Shown here: piece by piece, positions 40,144-47,980 of the stretch
Layout of the letters: each line of letters opens with the position of its first letter
Numbering within the stretch: position 1 is the stretch's first letter
Sequence record: PQ480333.1
Direction: 5' to 3' (one strand)
From: Escherichia phage NRG-P0074
DNA length: 64,000 bases
Made by a program: the position numbers and the translations under genes
Notes under the pieces: generated by a model
What the model saw: only the letters and a program-made list of their open reading frames with translations
Told to the model about the DNA's origin: nothing
The model's database searches: none

Positions 40144-42855
40144 ATGAAAGAATTTTACTTAACGGTTGAACAGATTGGTGATTCAATTTTTGAACGTTAC
40201 ATCGATTCTAATGGCCGTGAACGTACTCGTGAAGTAGAATATAAACCATCACTGTTTGCTCATTGTCCAGAAAGTCAGGCTACGAAATATTTCGATATCT
40301 ACGGTAAACCGTGTACTCGTAAGTTGTTCGCTAATATGCGTGATGCCTCCCAATGGATTAAACGCATGGAAGATATCGGACTTGAAGCACTTGGCATGGA
40401 CGATTTCAAATTGGCGTATTTGTCTGACACTTATAACTATGAAATCAAATACGACCATACAAAAATTCGTGTGGCTAACTTCGACATCGAAGTAACATCT
40501 CCGGATGGGTTCCCTGAGCCGTCACAAGCAAAACATCCGATTGATGCTATCACCCACTATGACTCAATTGACGACAGGTTCTACGTATTTGATCTATTGA
40601 ATTCTCCATACGGTAATGTGGAAGAATGGTCTATTGAAATCGCTGCTAAGCTTCAAGAACAAGGTGGTGATGAAGTTCCATCCGAAATTATCGATAAAAT
40701 CATTTATATGCCGTTCGATAACGAAAAAGAATTGTTGATGGAATATCTCAACTTCTGGCAACAGAAAACTCCTGTCATTTTGACTGGATGGAACGTTGAG
40801 TCATTTGATATTCCATATGTGTATAACCGAATCAAGAATATTTTTGGCGAATCTACTGCGAAACGTTTATCACCACATCGTAAAACTCGTGTTAAAGTTA
40901 TCGAAAACATGTATGGTTCTCGTGAAATCATTACATTGTTCGGTATCTCTGTTCTTGATTACATTGACCTTTACAAAAAATTCTCTTTTACCAATCAACC
41001 GTCGTATTCTCTGGATTACATTTCAGAATTTGAATTGAACGTTGGTAAACTGAAATATGACGGTCCTATTTCTAAACTTCGCGAAAGTAATCATCAACGA
41101 TATATAAGCTATAACATCATCGACGTATATCGTGTATTGCAAATTGATGCTAAGCGTCAGTTCATTAACTTGAGCTTGGACATGGGTTATTATGCTAAGA
41201 TACAGATTCAATCTGTGTTTAGCCCAATTAAAACATGGGATGCTATTATTTTTAATAGCCTTAAAGAGCAGAACAAGGTGATTCCACAAGGTCGTTCTCA
41301 CCCGGTTCAACCTTATCCTGGCGCTTTTGTTAAGGAACCTATTCCAAATCGATACAAATATGTAATGAGTTTCGACCTTACATCTCTGTATCCAAGTATT
41401 ATTCGCCAAGTGAATATTAGCCCAGAAACAATAGCAGGAACGTTTAAAGTAGCTCCATTGCATGATTATATTAACGCTGTTGCTGAACGTCCTTCTGATG
41501 TGTACAGTTGTTCTCCTAACGGCATGATGTATTATAAAGACCGTGACGGTGTTGTTCCAACTGAAATCACTAAAGTCTTTAATCAACGTAAAGAACATAA
41601 AGGTTACATGCTTGCGGCTCAACGTAATGGTGAAATAATTAAAGAGGCATTGCATAATCCTAATCTTTCTGTTGACGAACCGTTAGATGTTGATTATCGT
41701 TTCGACTTCAGTGATGAGATTAAAGAAAAGATTAAAAAGTTGTCTGCTAAATCTCTTAATGAAATGTTGTTTAGAGCTCAACGTACTGAAGTTGCAGGTA
41801 TGACTGCCCAAATTAACCGTAAATTGCTTATCAACTCACTTTATGGTGCACTTGGAAACGTTTGGTTCCGTTATTATGATTTGCGTAATGCTACTGCAAT
41901 CACAACATTTGGTCAAATGGCTTTACAGTGGATTGAACGTAAAGTTAATGAATATCTGAATGAAGTTTGTGGTACAGAAGGCGAAGCTTTCGTTCTTTAT
42001 GGTGATACAGACTCCATTTACGTATCTGCAGATAAAATTATTGATAAGGTTGGTGAATCTAAATTCCGTGATACCAACCATTGGGTAGACTTCTTAGATA
42101 AGTTCGCTCGTGAACGTATGGAACCTGCTATTGATAGAGGTTTCCGTGAAATGTGCGAATACATGAACAATAAACAACACTTAATGTTCATGGACCGAGA
42201 AGCTATCGCTGGTCCTCCGCTCGGTTCTAAAGGTATTGGTGGATTTTGGACTGGTAAGAAACGTTATGCATTAAACGTGTGGGATATGGAAGGTACTCGT
42301 TACGCTGAGCCTAAACTCAAAATCATGGGACTAGAGACTCAGAAATCTTCGACCCCTAAAGCAGTACAGAAAGCTCTTAAAGAATGTATTCGTCGTATGC
42401 TTCAAGAAGGTGAAGAATCATTACAAGAATATTTTAAAGAGTTTGAAAAAGAATTCCGTCAATTGAATTATATTAGCATCGCGGCGGTATCTTCTGCGAA
42501 TAACATTGCTAAATATGATGTAGGTGGATTCCCTGGTCCTAAATGCCCGTTCCATATTCGCGGAATTCTGACGTATAACCGGGCTATCAAAGGTAATATC
42601 GATGCACCGCAAGTTGTAGAAGGTGAAAAAGTATATGTTCTGCCTTTACGTGAAGGAAACCCATTCGGTGATAAATGTATCGCATGGCCTTCTGGTACTG
42701 AAATCACAGATTTAATTAAAGACGACGTACTTCATTGGATGGACTACACTGTTCTCCTTGAGAAGACATTTATTAAACCACTTGAAGGATTCACATCAGC
42801 AGCGAAACTCGATTACGAGAAGAAAGCATCTCTGTTCGATATGTTCGATTTTTGA
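40144..42855 (+). CDS. 43: DNA polymerase gp43 (family B)
   Basis: 903 aa; exonuclease motifs FDIEV, YNIIDV; polymerase motifs DLTSLYPSI, YGDTDS; N-terminus MKEFYLTVEQIGDSIFERYIDSNGRERTREVEYKPSLFAHCPESQATKYFDIYGKPC corresponds to the RB69-type polymerase as I remember it. Confidence 0.98.
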   Translation: MKEFYLTVEQIGDSIFERYIDSNGRERTREVEYKPSLFAHCPESQATKYFDIYGKPCTRKLFANMRDASQWIKRMEDIGLEALGMDDFKLAYLSDTYNYEIKYDHTKIRVANFDIEVTSPDGFPEPSQAKHPIDAITHYDSIDDRFYVFDLLNSPYGNVEEWSIEIAAKLQEQGGDEVPSEIIDKIIYMPFDNEKELLMEYLNFWQQKTPVILTGWNVESFDIPYVYNRIKNIFGESTAKRLSPHRKTRVKVIENMYGSREIITLFGISVLDYIDLYKKFSFTNQPSYSLDYISEFELNVGKLKYDGPISKLRESNHQRYISYNIIDVYRVLQIDAKRQFINLSLDMGYYAKIQIQSVFSPIKTWDAIIFNSLKEQNKVIPQGRSHPVQPYPGAFVKEPIPNRYKYVMSFDLTSLYPSIIRQVNISPETIAGTFKVAPLHDYINAVAERPSDVYSCSPNGMMYYKDRDGVVPTEITKVFNQRKEHKGYMLAAQRNGEIIKEALHNPNLSVDEPLDVDYRFDFSDEIKEKIKKLSAKSLNEMLFRAQRTEVAGMTAQINRKLLINSLYGALGNVWFRYYDLRNATAITTFGQMALQWIERKVNEYLNEVCGTEGEAFVLYGDTDSIYVSADKIIDKVGESKFRDTNHWVDFLDKFARERMEPAIDRGFREMCEYMNNKQHLMFMDREAIAGPPLGSKGIGGFWTGKKRYALNVWDMEGTRYAEPKLKIMGLETQKSSTPKAVQKALKECIRRMLQEGEESLQEYFKEFEKEFRQLNYISIAAVSSANNIAKYDVGGFPGPKCPFHIRGILTYNRAIKGNIDAPQVVEGEKVYVLPLREGNPFGDKCIAWPSGTEITDLIKDDVLHWMDYTVLLEKTFIKPLEGFTSAAKLDYEKKASLFDMFDF

Positions 42856-42895
42856 TATAATGACATGGACGGTAAACTAATTAAATGAGAGAAAT

Positions 42896-43531
42896 ATGAA
42901 AACTACTCCTATTACTATCGCTATTGACGCAATCATAAAACAAGCTTCTTCTTTGGCCGCTATGGCCAAAGTAATTAGTCAAAACCCTGCTCGTTATAAT
43001 GCTATTCTAGAAACTCTTCGACGCCCGGGACTTAGTAATTATGAAAGCCGAGTAATTATTACAGGTGTTGGTAAGAATGCTAATATTGCAACTAAAGCTT
43101 CTGAGACATTTGCTTCACTCGGTATCCCGAGTATGTACTTGAACACTGGGCATTATTCTCACGGTGATGCAGGATTCATTGCGCCTAATGACGTGTTGAT
43201 TCATATTAGTCGTTCTGGTAAAACTGAAGAAATGATAGGCGTGGCTAAGCATCTTAAAATGATTCGACCGAACGTCAAACAGATTCTGTTGCATTGTAAC
43301 CCAGACATTCCACAAGAAAATGAAGCCCTTTTTGATTACTCTTTCTGTACAGGCATCGCAGTAGAGGTTGATGAGAATTCTCTGGCTCCGACTATGTCCA
43401 CTACATTGTTGTTAGCGCTTATCGATACGTTCGCTATCAACCTTTCGTCTGAACGTGGATTTACCTCTAATGACTTCCTTAAGTTCCACCCTGGTGGTGC
43501 ACTAGGTGCCATGTTACGAGGCGAACAATGA
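42896..43531 (+). CDS. SIS-domain sugar-phosphate isomerase, KdsD/GutQ-like (putative D-arabinose-5-phosphate isomerase), no CBS domains
   Basis: VIITGVGKNANIATKASETFASLGIP, HGDAGFIAPNDVLIHISRSGKTEE, LAPTMSTT and FLKFHPGGALG align by eye with E. coli KdsD SIS-domain motifs. Confidence 0.8.
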   Translation: MKTTPITIAIDAIIKQASSLAAMAKVISQNPARYNAILETLRRPGLSNYESRVIITGVGKNANIATKASETFASLGIPSMYLNTGHYSHGDAGFIAPNDVLIHISRSGKTEEMIGVAKHLKMIRPNVKQILLHCNPDIPQENEALFDYSFCTGIAVEVDENSLAPTMSTTLLLALIDTFAINLSSERGFTSNDFLKFHPGGALGAMLRGEQ

Positions 43532-43671
43532 AAGCAATAACAATAGGACTTTTACTATTGATGCTTGTCATGACTATCTACTGGAGCTTAACGGCTCCAG
43601 TAATGATTCCAACACTTGTAATTGGATGGATTATGATTGGACTACAAGCAAAGTATGAATGCTTTAACTAG
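43528..43671 (+). CDS. hypothetical small hydrophobic peptide (47 aa, below ORF-track cutoff)
   Basis: ATGA overlap with SIS gene stop; two predicted TM helices (ITIGLLLLMLVMTIYW, MIPTLVIGWIMIGL). Confidence 0.3.
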   Translation: MKAITIGLLLLMLVMTIYWSLTAPVMIPTLVIGWIMIGLQAKYECFN

Positions 43672-43712: not shown

Positions 43713-45398
43713 ATGAAAAAAGCTGTTATTCTTGGTGCTGGACTGGCAACTCGTTTATATCCAATAACGCATCATATTCCTAAGGTGCTTGTTAACTATA
43801 AACAAGACACTATTCTGAGCAATTTGTATACAATTTATTCTGACCTTGGCGCAGATGAAATTATTGTAGTAGTTCATTCAAAATTTGCTGAAACTGTTCG
43901 AGCTTATTGTGAGCAAGAAGGGTTCAATGTGACTATTCGTACAGTTGATGAAGCGTATGGTTCTGCTTATGCTCTTGCTAAATTACACAAAGATTTAGAC
44001 GGCCATAATGTAATTGTTAACTGGTGTGATATTATTCCGGATTTTGGTTCATGGTCTTGGAATGTTAACGCAATCTATGTTAAGGGTGACGAATGTCGAT
44101 ATAATTTCGACGGTGAAAATATCACTAACGTAGGTTCAACAGGTGGTAATGTTGTAGGAATTTATCAGTTCAAAGACTGGGAATTCTATATGGGTTCTAC
44201 TGATGAGGAAATTCATGAATACTGCAAAGGACGTGATTTCGTAGAATTCCTTTACGGCAGCGCATTCAATAAATCAGAGCTTATGAATCTAATTGATTTA
44301 GGTGATATGCCTAAACTTGAAAAAGCTCATGAAGTTCGTGAACTTAATCGTAGTTTTAATGCAGTTGAAATTGGTGAAGAAACTGTAACTAAATTCGCAT
44401 TAACCGAACAGGGACGAGCTCTTCAGAAAGATGAGATTTCATGGTATCTTAAAGTGAAATCAGATTCAGTTCCTCAGTTAGTTTCTGTTAATGAAAATAA
44501 CTTTGAAATGGAACGCATTAAAGGTAAGCCGGCATTTGAATATATTAAATCCAAATCAAGTCTTGCTCGTCCACAAATTGTTGATGCAATTTTAGATGCA
44601 CTGAAATTCAGCACAGACACTTATTTTGTAAGTCCTGAAACTGTTCGTCGTGATTTCACTAAAGAATTCTATACGAAAGTTATTGATCGTTGTGAAAGCA
44701 TTCAACCATTGATTGATTCATTTGGTAAAATCACACATGTGAACTACACTAAGATTGGACGTCTGAAGCCAATGCTGAAACAAGCTTTAGAACATCTTAT
44801 TCGTTATCATAACCGTTCTCAGGGACAGTACTCTGTTATTCATGGTGACCCGAACTTCAGTAATACTATGATTACTGATAACGGCGAAGTTAAGTTTATC
44901 GACCCTCGTGGATATTTTGGCGAAACCAAGATTTACGGGCCAAAATTGTACGATGAAGCTAAAGTGCTTTATGCTGTTTCAGGTTATGATGAATTCAACG
45001 CTAATCCGACCTGGGGACAGTTTACTATTGATGAAACAACTTGTAATGTGACTATTAACATCAATCCATTAGTTTACAAATATGGAAAGATGAGTTCGTT
45101 TAACGAGTATCATCATTTGGCAGTGGCAATTATCTGGATTGCATTAGGTGGTTATTTCAAGAATAATCCACTTAAAGCGGTAGCCGCATATTATAAAGGT
45201 ATGGAACTTCTGACTAAGCAATTACGTAACATGGGCCGTGTACTTCAGGACGGCTCTATTAGTTATGACGTAGCAGAACCTGTAACGGCTACTCTGATTA
45301 CAAAAAATCCTGGTAAATGGGTACTAACTGATAAAGAAACTGGTGTTTCCTATCGTCCAATCGGTGGCGATATCACTCATCAATGGGAACGAATTTGA
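43713..45398 (+). CDS. bifunctional sugar-1-phosphate nucleotidyltransferase / sugar kinase (APH-MtnK-like)
   Basis: N-term RmlA/GalU-like ILGAGLATRLYPIT...PK; C-term protein-kinase-like catalytic loop VIHGDPNFSN and metal-binding IDPRGYFG. Confidence 0.7.
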   Translation: MKKAVILGAGLATRLYPITHHIPKVLVNYKQDTILSNLYTIYSDLGADEIIVVVHSKFAETVRAYCEQEGFNVTIRTVDEAYGSAYALAKLHKDLDGHNVIVNWCDIIPDFGSWSWNVNAIYVKGDECRYNFDGENITNVGSTGGNVVGIYQFKDWEFYMGSTDEEIHEYCKGRDFVEFLYGSAFNKSELMNLIDLGDMPKLEKAHEVRELNRSFNAVEIGEETVTKFALTEQGRALQKDEISWYLKVKSDSVPQLVSVNENNFEMERIKGKPAFEYIKSKSSLARPQIVDAILDALKFSTDTYFVSPETVRRDFTKEFYTKVIDRCESIQPLIDSFGKITHVNYTKIGRLKPMLKQALEHLIRYHNRSQGQYSVIHGDPNFSNTMITDNGEVKFIDPRGYFGETKIYGPKLYDEAKVLYAVSGYDEFNANPTWGQFTIDETTCNVTININPLVYKYGKMSSFNEYHHLAVAIIWIALGGYFKNNPLKAVAAYYKGMELLTKQLRNMGRVLQDGSISYDVAEPVTATLITKNPGKWVLTDKETGVSYRPIGGDITHQWERI

Positions 45399-46144
45399 TA
45401 CATTATCTCTACAAAACTACTAATCTTATAAACGGTAAAGTTTATTTAGGAATGCACTCGGCTGAAGAAGCCGAGCCTTTAGATTTATATAAAGGTTCTG
45501 GTAAATTATATAAAAAGGCTGAAAGGAAATACGGGAAGGAAAATTTTCTTAAAGAAATCATTTCCTACCATAGCTCGAGAGAAGAATTAAAAATAGCTGA
45601 AAAGGCTCTAATAACATTAGACATAGTTAAAGACCCAAATTATTACAATCTTAAAACTGGTGGCGAAGGCGGTTCTGACGGGTTATCCCAAAGGTCCAAG
45701 GATAAAATTTCTAAGGCAAATAAAGGACGTTTAGTTGGTGATAAAAACCCAAGATGGGGTAAAACTTTGTCAGCTGAATCTATAGCTAGGGGTAAAGAAA
45801 AGCACAGGAGGTATGGTAAACCTGCATTACATGGTCTAAAGATTAATGTAGATGGCAAATATTATGAATCCTGTCGGGAAGCGGCTAAAGATTTGGGTAT
45901 ATCTTCTGCCACGATTCAAAAGAGAGTAAAATCGCCTAAATATCTTAATTATCGATATCAGGACGAAAGCAAAAATGCTCACAAGTCTCAAAAATTTGTT
46001 AAAATAAACGAAAATTACTATGAATCTCTTAGGATAGCTGAAAAGAAAACGGGTATTCCTAGAAAGCGTATAGCTGATAATATTAAAAATTCTATTGAAG
46101 GATATTGCTATGAAACCATTACATCTTTGCGTGGACGTCGATGA
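45383..46144 (+). CDS. GIY-YIG homing endonuclease (Seg-like), free-standing mobile gene
   Basis: N-terminal GIY-YIG module HYLYKTTNLINGKVYLGMH; Lys-rich C-terminal DNA-binding region; overlaps both neighbours. Confidence 0.7.
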   Translation: MGTNLIHYLYKTTNLINGKVYLGMHSAEEAEPLDLYKGSGKLYKKAERKYGKENFLKEIISYHSSREELKIAEKALITLDIVKDPNYYNLKTGGEGGSDGLSQRSKDKISKANKGRLVGDKNPRWGKTLSAESIARGKEKHRRYGKPALHGLKINVDGKYYESCREAAKDLGISSATIQKRVKSPKYLNYRYQDESKNAHKSQKFVKINENYYESLRIAEKKTGIPRKRIADNIKNSIEGYCYETITSLRGRR

Positions 46145-46484
46145 TTGTATAACAGAGTGGAATAACAATCGTGATTACGTGAACTTCAAACCAGACGTCG
46201 AAATGGTGACTGCCATTAATGCCCTGTATGATGCAGGGCATACCATAACGCTTTACACTGCTCGCGGTATGAAGTCAGTAGGTCCTGGTCGTATAGCAAT
46301 TGACATTCTCCCGAGTCTGATTCAGAACTTGGCAAACATTGGCTTGAAGTACCATAATTTGCTAACACATAAACCAGTATATGATTGGATTATCGACGAC
46401 AAAGCTATGCGTCCTGACGAATTCAAAGCTCTTATGAATAAAGGCGAATTCGAAACATTTAAATCATATAAACCGAATCTATAA
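46110..46484 (+). CDS. putative HAD-superfamily phosphatase (small, KdsC-size)
   Basis: Motif I-like LCVDVDDCIT, motif II LYTAR, motif III K in THKP, motif IV IIDDK; alternative start 46095. Confidence 0.45.
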   Translation: MKPLHLCVDVDDCITEWNNNRDYVNFKPDVEMVTAINALYDAGHTITLYTARGMKSVGPGRIAIDILPSLIQNLANIGLKYHNLLTHKPVYDWIIDDKAMRPDEFKALMNKGEFETFKSYKPNL

Positions 46485-46541
46485 TAATTTAAGTAAGACC
46501 TGCAAAAACCATCGCATCAATTAACGTGAGATGCAAAAAAA

Positions 46542-47702
46542 ATGAATACTTTTAAAATCGGAACGAATTTTGATTTAGCTCTTCTTGATAAAATCGTAGA
46601 GCTCAATAAAACTTATCCTAATAGCTTGATAAACGAAGTATACGGCTCTACAAGAGAAATGGCTTTTGTAGCAGCCAGACCTGATTTTAGGCTTCCTGAC
46701 GTTGACAAAAAGATGTTAGAAGATTACGTTAAACGTTGTAACGAATTAGGTATTTGCTTTAACTATACACTCAACACGATAAATCCTGGTTCAAAAAGAG
46801 AACTAGTTGAGTGGAAGAAGAAAGCTATTCAGGATTATGTTCAGTATCTTTGGTCAATAGGCGTATGGCGTATTACTATCGCTAACCCTGTTGTTATGGA
46901 AATTGTTCGTGAAGTCAATAAAGACATTGAGATTGAAGTTTCAACAATTCTACATGTCGATGCTGTAACTCAAATCAAATACTTGCATGACCAATATAAT
47001 ATCAAAAAGGTCTGCTGTGGAATTCATAAGAACCGTTCAGTTTCTTTCCTGAAGCGTGCAGCAGAGTTTTGCAATAAGAACAATATAATATTTGAAGTTC
47101 TTGTAAATGAGTTCTGTTCTAATGCTGGTAAAGGGTATACAACACATTGTAGCTATCGTGACTCTTGCTATATTTTCCATAGTACTGATGTTACAGCTGA
47201 TGATGCTAAATCCTTAAACGGATATCCTATGCAGCACTGTATTAAAGCTCGTGATACAGACCCATTTAACTGGTTGAGAACTCGTTTTGTTCGTCCTCAA
47301 GATTTGAAACTTTATAATGATATTGGTATCACTCAATTCAAAGTTTCAGGACGTACAGGTAGCACAGACTACATTTTGAAAGTTCTTGAAGCATACGCTT
47401 CTGAAAAGTTTGAAGGTAATTTGTTAGAACTGTGGAAGCCTTTAGAGACTATTTTCACTCTTGAAAACGAAACTGAGTTTTCACATACAGTAAATATTGA
47501 AACCTCTTTGTTAGATGGCTTTTTAGAAAAAAGGTGGTTCAGACATCCAGATTTCGATTGTGCTAATGAAATCTGCGGGACGACGTGTACATATTGTGAA
47601 AGATATTATAAACGTCAATTATCTAAAAACGGGTTAGCAGAAAACTCTATATCTATTATTGATATAACTAACTCTGATGACGCTTTGAGGTACCCGGAAT
47701 GA
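46542..47702 (+). CDS. hypothetical Cys-rich protein (possible Fe-S/metal-binding enzyme, U32-like fold not excluded)
   Basis: 386 aa; Cys cluster EFCSNAGKGYTTHCSYRDSC and C-terminal CANEICGTTCTYC; no Rossmann or radical-SAM CxxxCxxC. Confidence 0.55.
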   Translation: MNTFKIGTNFDLALLDKIVELNKTYPNSLINEVYGSTREMAFVAARPDFRLPDVDKKMLEDYVKRCNELGICFNYTLNTINPGSKRELVEWKKKAIQDYVQYLWSIGVWRITIANPVVMEIVREVNKDIEIEVSTILHVDAVTQIKYLHDQYNIKKVCCGIHKNRSVSFLKRAAEFCNKNNIIFEVLVNEFCSNAGKGYTTHCSYRDSCYIFHSTDVTADDAKSLNGYPMQHCIKARDTDPFNWLRTRFVRPQDLKLYNDIGITQFKVSGRTGSTDYILKVLEAYASEKFEGNLLELWKPLETIFTLENETEFSHTVNIETSLLDGFLEKRWFRHPDFDCANEICGTTCTYCERYYKRQLSKNGLAENSISIIDITNSDDALRYPE

Positions 47703-47938
47703 TTTCTAGAAAAACTTTTAACCACCAACTTAATGAAGAGATTTTGACTATGAAACTGAACACTAATGAACAAATTCTTAAAAAGGCCCTGATGGGCCTG
47801 TTTGAAACTAAAGCGGCTAAAGTGATTAAAGAACCTGTTCAATTGGAATACTACGCTGATGCATTTCTTCATAGTGTTCTTGGAAGTATCGATGCTGAAG
47901 CTTTACGTTATATCAACATTGTCAAGAAATTCAAATAA
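47699..47938 (+). CDS. hypothetical protein
   Basis: 79 aa ATGA-coupled ORF upstream of gene 42. Confidence 0.45.
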   Translation: MISRKTFNHQLNEEILTMKLNTNEQILKKALMGLFETKAAKVIKEPVQLEYYADAFLHSVLGSIDAEALRYINIVKKFK

Positions 47939-47980
47939 GCTTTACGAATTGAGTATATAATAAATTGTATTGAGGTAAAC

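What the first reader, a model, noticed from the sequence alone, without database searches (positions are those of the whole stretch)
42896..43531. Phage-encoded KdsD-like arabinose-5-phosphate isomerase lacking the CBS tandem
The 211-aa protein aligns by eye with the E. coli KdsD SIS domain: HGDAGFIAPNDVLIHISRSGKTEE versus HGDLGMVTPQDVVIAISNSGESSE, LAPTMSTT versus LAPTSSTT, FLKFHPGGALG versus FALSHPGGALG. It ends where the CBS domains of KdsD would begin. A5P isomerase activity is unusual for a lytic phage and points specifically at D-arabinose chemistry.
Basis: partly seen in the sequence, partly recalled or inferred. Interest (0 to 1): 0.7.

Follow-up and report, generated by a model that had tools for sequence, protein, structure and literature searches.

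The report
Phage arabinose-5-phosphate isomerase, already known
This gene of an RB69-like T4-type phage really is a short KdsD-type arabinose-5-phosphate isomerase, but it is already annotated and published as the first step of the pathway that makes the arabinose these phages attach to their DNA cytosines.

Summary
ORF 42896..43531 (+) encodes a 211-aa single-SIS-domain protein, 36% identical to E. coli KdsD residues 23-202 (E 1e-33), and it ends before the KdsD CBS pair. The residues aligned with KdsD K59, H88, E111, E152 and H193 are invariant across 42 phage homologs. A confident AlphaFold model (pLDDT 95.6) matches KdsD-SIS (2XHZ), the Bacteroides fragilis isomerase (3ETN) and E. coli CFT073 c3406 with A5P bound (5UQI). 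Other SIS classes score at least 10,000-fold worse.

The window is a Mosigvirus, and the protein is 100% identical to RB69 gp55. RefSeq, PHROG 5670 and more than 100 phage records already call it arabinose 5-phosphate isomerase. Thomas et al. 2018 and Lee et al. 2026 assign it to UDP-arabinose synthesis for arabinosylated 5-hydroxycytosine DNA. It heads the cluster between DNA polymerase and uvsX, with the AfhE-like kinase/uridylyltransferase, the AfhF-like phosphatase, the 5hodCMP synthase and a glycosyltransferase.

CBS-less isomerases have bacterial precedents. No enzyme assay of the phage protein appears in any text I could read.

More interesting in passing is the neighbouring U32-family gene. 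It is absent from phages of aerobic Acinetobacter, and in 47 other phage records a chorismate mutase gene follows it. This hints at oxygen-independent cytosine hydroxylation.

The parts
42896..43531 (+). Arabinose-5-phosphate isomerase: a single SIS domain with no CBS pair, the ortholog of RB69 gp55 / RB69ORF055c. This is the finding.
   Evidence: Pfam SIS 1e-10. NCBIfam KpsF/GutQ 2e-32 and KdsD 7e-31. PHROG 5670 'arabinose 5-phosphate isomerase' 4e-116. 36% identity to E. coli KdsD, E 1e-33. 100% aa identity to RB69 gp55 and 99% to HY126. Foldseek top hits 2XHZ, 3ETN and 5UQI.
43528..43671 (+). 47-aa hydrophobic small ORF whose ATG overlaps the isomerase stop codon (ATGA). Function unknown; conserved in the cluster.
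   Evidence: Sequence read directly. PHROG 3610, 6.8e-27, full length. 100% identical in RB69 and 98% in HY126. One record annotates it as a putative transmembrane protein (H51).
43713..45398 (+). AfhE-like bifunctional enzyme with an N-terminal sugar-1-phosphate nucleotidyltransferase and a C-terminal APH-type kinase. It corresponds to RB69 gp52:53. In HY126 it is reported as an A5P kinase plus UDP-arabinose pyrophosphorylase.
   Evidence: Pfam NTP_transferase 8.5e-10 plus weak kinase-family hits. 97% identical to the HY126 protein and 99.5-99.7% to the two RB69 pieces. Function as summarised in PMC13326640.
45383..46144 (+). Seg-like GIY-YIG homing endonuclease inserted between the AfhE-like and phosphatase genes. 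It is a mobile insertion, not part of the pathway.
   Evidence: Pfam I-TevI DNA-binding domain, NUMOD1/3 and SegE GIY-YIG. 45% identical to the N-terminal domain of T4 SegA. Absent from RB69 and HY126. Present in BEU50, a20 and JM17.
46095..46484 (+). AfhF-like HAD-type phosphatase (RB69 gp51). The start is either TTG 46095 or ATG 46110. It is reported to remove the 5-phosphate from arabinose-1,5-bisphosphate.
   Evidence: NCBIfam TIGR01689 capsule biosynthesis phosphatase 2.5e-13. 97.5% identical to RB69 and HY126 from residue 4 onward. Function as summarised in PMC13326640.
46542..47702 (+). Peptidase-U32-family protein (RB69 gp50). Its role in the cluster is unresolved.
   Evidence: Pfam Peptidase_U32 7.3e-11. 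PHROG 5757. 99.5% identical to RB69. Distribution and chorismate-mutase neighbour in other phages.
47699..47938 (+). 79-aa ORF (RB69ORF049c) restricted to Mosigvirus. Function unknown.
   Evidence: PHROG 8601. Homologs are found only at 80% identity or more, and many are truncated. It is not a chorismate mutase: hhalign probability 0.2%.
47981..48697 (+). Thymidylate-synthase homolog, the 5-hydroxy-dCMP synthase (RB69 gp48).
   Evidence: Pfam Thymidylat_synt 2.3e-15. 98.7% identical to RB69 gp48, whose 5hodCMP synthase activity was shown experimentally (PMC13326640).
48697..49596 (+). Putative DNA arabinosyltransferase 1 (RB69 gp46:47, intact here as one ORF).
   Evidence: 99-100% identical to the two RB69 pieces and 99.3% to the single HY126 ORF. 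Assignment from PMC13326640 Table 1.
49598..50146 (+). Thymidylate-kinase-like nucleotide kinase (RB69 gp45), the last gene of the cassette before uvsX.
   Evidence: 98.9% identical to RB69 gp45. Annotation and Table 1.

Best explanation
The gene encodes a single-domain (SIS only) D-arabinose-5-phosphate isomerase of the KdsD/GutQ/KpsF type. During infection it converts host D-ribulose 5-phosphate from the pentose phosphate pathway into D-arabinose 5-phosphate. According to the published account of the 97-99% identical HY126 enzymes, the neighbouring gene products then act in turn. The kinase domain of the AfhE-like protein phosphorylates C1. The AfhF-like HAD phosphatase removes the 5-phosphate. 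The nucleotidyltransferase domain of AfhE makes UDP-arabinofuranose. Phage glycosyltransferases transfer the arabinose to 5-hydroxycytosine in phage DNA, which protects it from host nucleases. The homology, the catalytic residues, the fold and the gene context are shown. The catalytic activity of this protein and its quantitative contribution are inferred. The host already has KdsD and GutQ, so the phage copy most likely raises A5P supply. Lacking CBS domains, it may do so free of whatever regulation those domains confer. A rough estimate from my own assumptions: about 62,000 C per genome, times about 1.8 arabinose per C, times a burst of 100-200, gives about 1-2 x 10^7 arabinose units per infected cell. 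That is several-fold the cell's normal Kdo demand.
For: Family: NCBIfam KpsF/GutQ 2e-32, KdsD 7e-31 and GutQ 9e-23. The next SIS families score 1e-6 or worse, and there is no GmhA or GlmS hit. PHROG 5670 scores 4e-116. BLASTP against E. coli KdsD gives 36% identity, E 1e-33. The only PDB sequence hits are A5P-isomerase-type SIS proteins: 3ETN, 5UQI, 2XHZ and 3FXA.

Active site: K60, H89, E112, E157 and H198 align with KdsD K59, H88, E111, E152 and H193. They are invariant in 17- and 42-sequence alignments that reach down to 41% identity.

Fold: the AF2 model has pLDDT 95.6. Foldseek top hits are 2XHZ, 3ETN and 5UQI ('c3406 in complex with A5P') at about 1e-13, against 2e-8 or worse for other SIS classes.

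Context: the gene heads a co-directional cluster with AfhE-like, HAD, ThyA-like and GT genes between gene 43 and uvsX. This is the slot where T4 carries gene 42 and beta-gt.

Identity: 100% aa identity to RB69 gp55.

Literature: RB69 DNA carries mono- and di-arabinosyl-5-hydroxycytosine, and gp55 is proposed to convert Ru5P to Araf5P (PMC13326640). ORF055c was singled out in 2018 (PMC6024577).

Selection: across 153 Mosigvirus records nucleotide identity is mostly 90-99%, but protein identity is almost always 95% or higher.
Against: I found no enzyme assay or knockout of the phage isomerase in any accessible text. Lee et al. treat it computationally, and He et al. 2026 and Mahler et al. 2025 were not readable.

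The protein scores below the curated full-length cutoffs of the KpsF/GutQ and KdsD models (112.9 against 203.7, and 107.7 against 505). This is expected, because it lacks about a third of those models.

The gene is not universal in the pathway. AfhE-like genes occur in 368 phage records and the isomerase in only 269. The Bp7 cluster has AfhE-like (42% identity) and ThyA-like (79% identity) genes but no SIS sequence. The phage isomerase is therefore dispensable in some lineages, which presumably use host KdsD or another sugar.
Confidence: 0.9

Rival explanations
1. It is an isomerase of another SIS family acting on a different sugar phosphate. Candidates are a GmhA-like sedoheptulose-7-phosphate isomerase, a 6-phospho-3-hexuloisomerase or a GlmS-type isomerase. 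In that case the arabinose would come from elsewhere.
For: All SIS proteins share a fold, and Foldseek does list PHI, MurQ, GlmS and GmhA structures with probability 1.0. The neighbouring HAD gene is widely annotated as 'phosphoheptose isomerase'.
Against: Those structures score 2e-8 to 1e-6, against about 1e-13 for the A5P isomerases, and share only 13-18% identity against 28-32%. No GmhA or GlmS model reaches E 0.01 in NCBIfam, and HxlB reaches only 6e-3. The five residues aligned with the KdsD active site are invariant. The downstream enzyme in HY126 is reported to use A5P.
Confidence: 0.03
2. It is a genuine A5P isomerase, but it serves host envelope chemistry (Kdo/LPS or a KpsF-like capsule function) as an auxiliary metabolic gene rather than DNA arabinosylation.
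For: KdsD, GutQ and KpsF all feed Kdo synthesis. The original RB69 note reads 'similar to bacterial polysialic acid capsular expression protein GutQ'.
Against: The gene sits at the head of the DNA-modification cassette, in the slot where T4 carries its hydroxymethylase and glucosyltransferase genes. In the records listed, the same T4-like lineages that carry it also carry AfhE-like genes: Mosigvirus, Serratia, Erwinia, Kosakonia, Enterobacter, Pectobacterium, Pseudomonas and 57 Acinetobacter phage records. No Kdo-8-P synthase or phosphatase or CMP-Kdo synthetase gene is annotated in the cluster. A lytic phage with a cycle of about 25 minutes gains little from new LPS.
Confidence: 0.04
3. It is a catalytically inactive SIS domain used as a sugar-phosphate sensor or regulator, as in RpiR/MurR-type proteins.
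For: RpiR-family SIS domains appear among the weaker hits.
Against: There is no DNA-binding domain. The protein is SIS only, with an N-terminal helical segment that aligns with KdsD residues 23-48. All residues aligned with the catalytic ones are invariant. RpiR-type matches score about 25 orders of magnitude worse than KpsF/GutQ.
Confidence: 0.02

Closest known systems
RB69 gp55 (RB69ORF055c, NP_861745.1) and its orthologs in Mosigvirus and other T4-like phages (PHROG 5670)
   Same: 100% amino-acid identity to RB69 gp55 and 99% to the HY126 ortholog. Same position directly downstream of DNA polymerase gene 43. Same length.
   Different: Nothing in the protein itself differs. The surrounding window differs from RB69 by a Seg-like homing endonuclease inserted two genes downstream, and by intact versions of the genes that appear split in the RB69 record.
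E. coli KdsD (YrbH) and GutQ, the two-domain arabinose-5-phosphate isomerases
   Same: 36% identity across the whole SIS domain. The residues aligned with K59, H88, E111, E152 and H193 are conserved. The fold is the same: TM 0.90 normalised to 2XHZ, rmsd 2.0 A.
   Different: The C-terminal tandem CBS domains are absent. The product is used for a nucleotide-sugar and DNA glycosylation route rather than for Kdo.
CBS-less single-domain A5P isomerases: E. coli CFT073 c3406 (PDB 5UQI) and Bacteroides fragilis API (PDB 3ETN)
   Same: SIS-only architecture of about 200 aa. These are the best PDB sequence hits, 3ETN at 2.6e-25 and 5UQI at 4.1e-23, and top structural hits. The nearest non-phage relatives in the 1.8-billion-protein search are also about 193-243 aa.
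   Different: Only 30-32% identical in the structural alignments. Those enzymes are chromosomal and are linked to capsule or Kdo chemistry (from my own knowledge of the literature, which was not held in the library).
ADP-heptose pathway logic (GmhA isomerase, HldE kinase, GmhB phosphatase, HldE/HldC nucleotidyltransferase)
   Same: The four steps occur in the same order: a SIS-domain ketose-to-aldose phosphate isomerase, an anomeric kinase giving a bisphosphate, a HAD phosphatase removing the distal phosphate, and a nucleotidyltransferase. The kinase and transferase are fused in one protein. The pathway is described; the analogy is my inference from established knowledge. The phosphatase gives GmhB-like structural hits in Table 1.
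   Different: The sugar is a C5 pentose rather than a C7 heptose, and the nucleotide is UDP rather than ADP. The kinase fold is APH-type rather than ribokinase-type. The acceptor is DNA rather than LPS. The isomerase is KdsD-type, not GmhA-type.

Membership tests
KpsF/GutQ/KdsD arabinose-5-phosphate isomerases (EC 5.3.1.13) | SIS (sugar isomerase) domain present | tested here: met
   Pfam PF01380, 41.9 bits against a cutoff of 25, residues 51-181.
KpsF/GutQ/KdsD arabinose-5-phosphate isomerases (EC 5.3.1.13) | Among SIS subfamilies, the best match is to the A5P-isomerase subfamily | tested here: met
   TIGR00393 2e-32, KdsD 7e-31 and GutQ 9e-23, with the next family at 1e-6. Foldseek gives APIs about 1e-13 and other SIS classes 2e-8 or worse.
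KpsF/GutQ/KdsD arabinose-5-phosphate isomerases (EC 5.3.1.13) | Reaches the curated full-length score cutoff of the NCBIfam models | tested here: not met
   112.9 against 203.7 (TIGR00393) and 107.7 against 505 (KdsD). The models include the CBS pair, which this protein lacks. It is therefore not an equivalog of full-length KdsD.
KpsF/GutQ/KdsD arabinose-5-phosphate isomerases (EC 5.3.1.13) | Conservation of active-site residues (KdsD K59, H88, E111, E152, H193). The residue list comes from my own knowledge of the KdsD mutagenesis and structure literature, which was not held in the library. | tested here: met
   K60, H89, E112, E157 and H198 align with them. They are invariant in 17- and 42-sequence alignments.
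KpsF/GutQ/KdsD arabinose-5-phosphate isomerases (EC 5.3.1.13) | C-terminal tandem CBS domains (typical of KdsD, GutQ and KpsF, but not required for activity) | tested here: not met
   The phage protein has no CBS hit, whereas KdsD has a CBS pair. The alignment ends at KdsD residue 202.
KpsF/GutQ/KdsD arabinose-5-phosphate isomerases (EC 5.3.1.13) | Catalyses Ru5P <-> A5P interconversion | not testable with these tools
   This needs an enzyme assay or complementation of a kdsD gutQ mutant. Accessible literature only proposes the activity.
CBS-less single-domain A5P isomerases (c3406 / B. fragilis type) | About 190-220 aa, SIS domain only, with sequence and structural similarity to 5UQI and 3ETN | tested here: met
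   211 aa. 3ETN 2.6e-25 and 5UQI 4.1e-23. Foldseek TM 0.80-0.89 normalised to the target.
Phage arabinosyl-5-hydroxycytosine (Afh-type) DNA modification cluster | Co-located with the AfhE-like kinase/nucleotidyltransferase, the AfhF-like HAD phosphatase, the ThyA-like 5hodCMP synthase and a glycosyltransferase | tested here: met
   All are present and co-directional at 43713..50146. They are 97-100% identical to the RB69 and HY126 proteins.
Phage arabinosyl-5-hydroxycytosine (Afh-type) DNA modification cluster | Virion DNA of this phage carries arabinosylated 5-hydroxycytosine | not testable with these tools
   This was shown for RB69 and other Mosigvirus phages by LC-MS and NMR (PMC13326640, PMC13390438). 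It is inferred here from near-identity of the cluster.
GmhA-type sedoheptulose-7-phosphate isomerase (rival) | Best match to GmhA models or structures | tested here: not met
   No GmhA model reaches E 0.01. The GmhA structure 5LU5 ranks 44th at 1.2e-6 with 16% identity.

The most novel reading that the evidence does not exclude
The phage isomerase is not just a spare copy of host KdsD. It is a deregulated flux valve. It would descend from an already CBS-less bacterial lineage, since the nearest non-phage relatives are about 200 aa. It would escape whatever control the CBS domains or Kdo-pathway feedback exert on the host enzymes. It might also hand A5P directly to the AfhE kinase, perhaps organised at the membrane by the translationally coupled 47-aa hydrophobic protein. 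On this reading, lineages that lack it (Dhakavirus, Marfavirus) would be limited by host KdsD or would use another sugar.
Probability: 0.2. Interest if true: 0.35.

Novelty: already known. Interest (0 to 1): 0.15.

Why it matters
[quoted passage not shown] 2026. That sugar lets these phages coat every cytosine with arabinose and so evade restriction enzymes and other DNA-targeting defences. This matters for phage therapy candidates, many of which are Mosigvirus, and for making glycosylated DNA enzymatically. The assignment itself has been in databases since the RB69 genome annotation and in the literature since 2018. Confirming it here adds an independent check rather than new biology.

Tried and rejected
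1. A different SIS family (GmhA, GlmS, PHI, RpiR sensor) was rejected by the HMM ranking and the Foldseek gap.

2. I tried an independent 'Rosetta stone' test of the AfhE-SIS fusion that Thomas et al. reported in Butyrivibrio. The long proteins from my exhaustive search (P0262, P0157, P0236, P0243, P0206) are SIS+CBS or other fusions, not AfhE fusions, and P0262 shows no similarity to AfhE. The fusion evidence therefore rests on the paper only.

3. The taxonomic origin of the phage clade could not be resolved. The nearest non-phage clusters are unnamed metagenomic proteins.

4. Promoter and terminator scans around the gene gave no more than chance. A perfect TATAAT lies just after the gene 43 stop (42856-42861), but no convincing -35 or MotA box accompanies it, so expression timing was not determined.

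5. Primary papers on KdsD catalytic residues, c3406 and the B. fragilis isomerase, and the He et al. 2026 and Mahler et al. 2025 papers, are not held in the library. Statements that rest on them are marked as my own knowledge or as second-hand through Lee et al.

6. I tested whether the 79-aa ORF at 47699..47938 is a diverged chorismate mutase. It is not: no Pfam hit, a different PHROG, and hhalign probability 0.2%.

7. The Fe-S cysteine motif of the U32 protein was inconclusive. E185, C192 and C209 align with motif positions, but Gly replaces the essential C176 position in a 16-21% identity alignment. There is no PDB sequence hit.

Full report
**What is there**

The ORF at 42896..43531 on the + strand runs from an ATG to a TGA at 43529-43531 and encodes 211 aa. 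It lies 40 bp downstream of a 903-aa T4-type DNA polymerase gene (40144..42855). Megablast places the window in the genus Mosigvirus, the RB69-like T4-type coliphages. The gene is 98.9% identical in nucleotides to RB69ORF055c and 99.7% to phage BEU50. At protein level it is 100% identical to RB69 gp55 and 99% identical to the ortholog in phage HY126.

**Checking the observation**

I fetched authentic E. coli K-12 kdsD from NC_000913.3. BLASTP gives 36% identity and 52% positives over phage residues 16-207 against KdsD residues 23-202, with E = 1e-33. In KdsD, Pfam finds the SIS domain at 45-177 followed by a CBS pair. The phage protein has only a SIS domain and ends about four residues beyond the position aligned with KdsD 202.

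**Which SIS family**

- NCBIfam ranks KpsF/GutQ (2e-32), KdsD (7e-31) and GutQ (9e-23) far ahead of anything else. The next hits are RpiR-type regulators at 1e-6, and no GmhA or GlmS model appears.
- The scores fall below the curated full-length cutoffs. This is expected for a protein missing the CBS third of those models.
- PHROG 5670, already named 'arabinose 5-phosphate isomerase', matches end to end at 4e-116.
- The only PDB sequence hits are the four A5P-isomerase-type SIS structures: 3ETN, 5UQI, 2XHZ and 3FXA.

**Active site**

From my own knowledge of the KdsD structure and mutagenesis literature (PDB 2XHZ is the K59A mutant), the functionally important residues are K59, H88, E111, E152 and H193. 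Those papers were not held in the library, so the residue list is recalled rather than verified. The aligned phage residues are K60, H89, E112, E157 and H198. All five are invariant in a 17-sequence alignment that includes KdsD, and in a 42-sequence alignment of phage homologs reaching down to 41% identity.

**Fold**

AlphaFold2 with the 42-sequence alignment gives a confident model, with mean pLDDT 95.6 and pTM 0.91. Foldseek against the PDB returns these top hits, at E about 1e-13 to 7e-13 and 28-32% identity:
- E. coli KdsD SIS domain (2XHZ; TM 0.90 normalised to the target, rmsd 2.0 A)
- B. fragilis 3ETN
- 5UQI, whose title is 'E. coli CFT073 c3406 in complex with A5P'

The Listeria protein 3FXA follows at about 1e-11. 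Every other SIS class scores 2e-8 or worse at 13-18% identity, including PHI, RpiR/MurR/NanR, MurQ, GlmS, NagB-II and GmhA. This reproduces Table 1 of Lee et al. 2026 for RB69p055.

**Lack of the CBS pair**

The missing CBS tandem is real but not unprecedented. The best PDB sequence hits, 3ETN (220 aa) and 5UQI (198 aa), are themselves about 200-aa SIS-only proteins. In an exhaustive HMMER search of 1.84 billion representatives, the phage clade is compact, with 14 clusters at E <= 1e-30. The six best-scoring proteins outside it are 193-243 aa long. Further down, forms of about 320 aa with CBS domains dominate, mixed with roughly a fifth short forms. This suggests descent from an already CBS-less lineage rather than truncation of host kdsD. 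The relatives are unnamed metagenomic proteins, so I could not establish their origin.

**Context and mechanism**

The gene heads a co-directional cassette between gene 43 and uvsX:
- the isomerase
- a 47-aa hydrophobic ORF whose ATG overlaps the isomerase stop codon
- a 561-aa nucleotidyltransferase plus kinase fusion
- an inserted homing endonuclease
- a HAD phosphatase
- a U32-family protein
- a 79-aa ORF
- a thymidylate-synthase homolog
- a glycosyltransferase
- a thymidylate-kinase-like protein

T4 carries imm.1, imm, gene 42 (dCMP hydroxymethylase), beta-glucosyltransferase and segA in the same slot. This is therefore the T-even DNA-modification locus with a different cassette in it.

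The literature explains the cassette.
- Thomas et al. 2018 found arabinose in RB69 DNA and picked out the 211-residue ORF055c and ORF53_52c as candidates for UDP-arabinose synthesis.
- Lee et al. 2026 showed that RB69 DNA carries mono- and di-arabinosylated 5-hydroxycytosine, and that the ThyA homolog gp48 makes 5-hydroxy-dCMP. They proposed that gp55 converts ribulose 5-phosphate to arabinose 5-phosphate.
- Lee et al. also summarise He et al. 2026 on HY126. There, AfhE phosphorylates A5P to the 1,5-bisphosphate, AfhF removes the 5-phosphate, and AfhE then forms UDP-arabinose.

The window's AfhE-like and AfhF-like proteins are 97% and 97.5% identical to the HY126 proteins. The step order (SIS isomerase, anomeric kinase, HAD phosphatase, nucleotidyltransferase) parallels the bacterial ADP-heptose pathway. 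That parallel is my inference from established knowledge.

**Shown and inferred**

Shown here are the homology, the conserved catalytic residues, the fold, the absence of CBS domains, the gene context, the identity to RB69 gp55, and purifying selection. On the last point, nucleotide identity across Mosigvirus is mostly 90-99% while protein identity is almost always 95% or more. Inferred are catalysis by this protein and its contribution to flux.

**Is the gene essential to the pathway?**

Probably not everywhere. tblastn finds the isomerase in 269 phage records and AfhE-like genes in 368. The excess includes about 40 Escherichia and about 25 Klebsiella phage records. In Dhakavirus Bp7, the cluster region has an AfhE-like gene (42% identity), a HAD gene, a ThyA-like gene (79% identity) and a glycosyltransferase-sized ORF. 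It has no SIS sequence in any frame and no U32 gene. The host has KdsD and GutQ, so the phage copy is best seen as a supply booster.

A rough estimate supports this. About 62,000 cytosines per genome, times about 1.8 arabinose per cytosine (the 1:4 mono:di ratio reported for phage NP), times a burst of 100-200, gives about 1-2 x 10^7 arabinose units per infected cell. By my own rough recollection of LPS numbers, that is several times the cell's Kdo demand per generation.

**Novelty**

None for the finding as stated. The RefSeq record of RB69 calls the protein arabinose 5-phosphate isomerase. More than a hundred phage records do the same. PHROGs has a named family. At least three papers discuss the gene.

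**Noticed in passing**

The most interesting item concerns the 386-aa protein at 46542..47702. It is a Peptidase_U32 family member, and Lee et al. label it only 'sugar or heterocycle reductase' in a table. The U32 family includes RlhA, which is required for 5-hydroxycytidine in 23S rRNA, as well as TrhP and UbiU/V. All three are linked to O2-independent, prephenate-dependent hydroxylation by Fe-S proteins (PMC5727448, PMC10990095).

The phage U32 gene is unusually conserved, at 82% identity or more across host genera. It occurs in 221 records from phages of Enterobacterales and Shewanella. It is essentially absent from Acinetobacter phages: none appears among the ten most frequent names, against 57 Acinetobacter records for the isomerase. 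In 47 phage records, a genuine type II chorismate mutase gene lies between the U32 gene and the ThyA-like gene, sometimes after a further small ORF (Pfam CM_2, 44.6 bits against a cutoff of 27). Chorismate mutase makes prephenate.

Together this suggests an oxygen-independent route to 5-hydroxycytosine that would complement the flavin- and O2-dependent ThyA homolog, useful for phages of gut facultative anaerobes. The evidence has limits:
- The phage protein is only 16-21% identical to the E. coli paralogs.
- It keeps the motif Glu and two aligned Cys but has Gly at the essential C176 position.
- The window's own 79-aa ORF in the chorismate-mutase slot is unrelated to chorismate mutase.
- A library search for U32, chorismate mutase and phage together found no paper on this. 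The two inaccessible papers may cover it.

Noticed in passing
window 46542..47702 (+): This is a U32-'peptidase'-family protein (RB69 gp50) inside a 5-hydroxycytosine DNA-modification cluster. U32 members RlhA, TrhP and UbiU/V are linked to O2-independent, prephenate-dependent hydroxylation, and RlhA is required for 5-hydroxycytidine in rRNA. The phage gene is at least 82% identical across host genera. It is found in 221 phage records of Enterobacterales and Shewanella hosts and is essentially absent from phages of the strict aerobe Acinetobacter. In 47 records a genuine chorismate mutase (prephenate-forming) gene lies between it and the ThyA-like gene. This may be an anaerobic route to 5-hydroxycytosine. 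The Cys-motif check was inconclusive (Gly at the RlhA/UbiU C176 position). Lee et al. 2026 do not discuss the gene in their text.
   Followed up: partly
window 45383..46144 (+): A 253-aa Seg-like GIY-YIG homing endonuclease, 45% identical to the N-terminal domain of T4 SegA, is inserted between the AfhE-like and HAD phosphatase genes. It overlaps both neighbours and replaces the first few codons of the phosphatase gene. It is absent from RB69, HY126 and most Mosigvirus records, and present in BEU50, a20 and JM17. Erwinia phage Virsaitis27 has a Seg-like endonuclease at a different point of the same cluster. One metagenomic relative (P0126) reads as an isomerase-GIY-YIG fusion.
   Followed up: partly
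window 43528..43671 (+): A 47-aa ORF (MKAITIGLLLLMLVMTIYWSLTAPVMIPTLVIGWIMIGLQAKYECFN) with two hydrophobic stretches has an ATG that overlaps the isomerase TGA (ATGA), which suggests translational coupling. It matches PHROG 3610 full length and is conserved in RB69 (annotated shorter there, 36 aa), HY126 and Erwinia phage Virsaitis27. Its function is unknown.
   Followed up: partly
L004 (Escherichia phage Bp7, NC_019500.1 34238-49908): About 100 more phage records carry an AfhE-like gene than carry the isomerase. Examples are Dhakavirus/Gaprivervirus coliphages and Klebsiella Marfavirus. The Bp7 cluster has AfhE-like (42% identity), HAD, ThyA-like (79% identity) and glycosyltransferase-sized genes, but no SIS and no U32 gene. 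Either these phages rely on host KdsD/GutQ for A5P or they activate a different sugar.
   Followed up: partly
window 47699..47938 (+): A 79-aa ORF (RB69ORF049c, PHROG 8601) overlaps the U32 stop codon. It is restricted to Mosigvirus and is often truncated or frameshifted in relatives (47-58 aa versions; split in HY126). It occupies the slot where other genera have a chorismate mutase but is unrelated to it (hhalign probability 0.2%).
   Followed up: yes
window 43713..45398 and 48697..49596 (+): The AfhE-like gene (561 aa) and the glycosyltransferase gene (299 aa) are each single intact ORFs here. The RB69 reference record splits each into two (ORF053c/052c and ORF047c/046c). This agrees with the published conclusion that the RB69 splits are sequencing errors.
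   Followed up: yes
window 42856..42861 (+): A perfect TATAAT hexamer lies immediately after the gene 43 stop codon, 35 bp upstream of the isomerase ATG. There is no convincing -35 or MotA box, and the consensus promoter scan of the region found no more than chance.
   Followed up: partly
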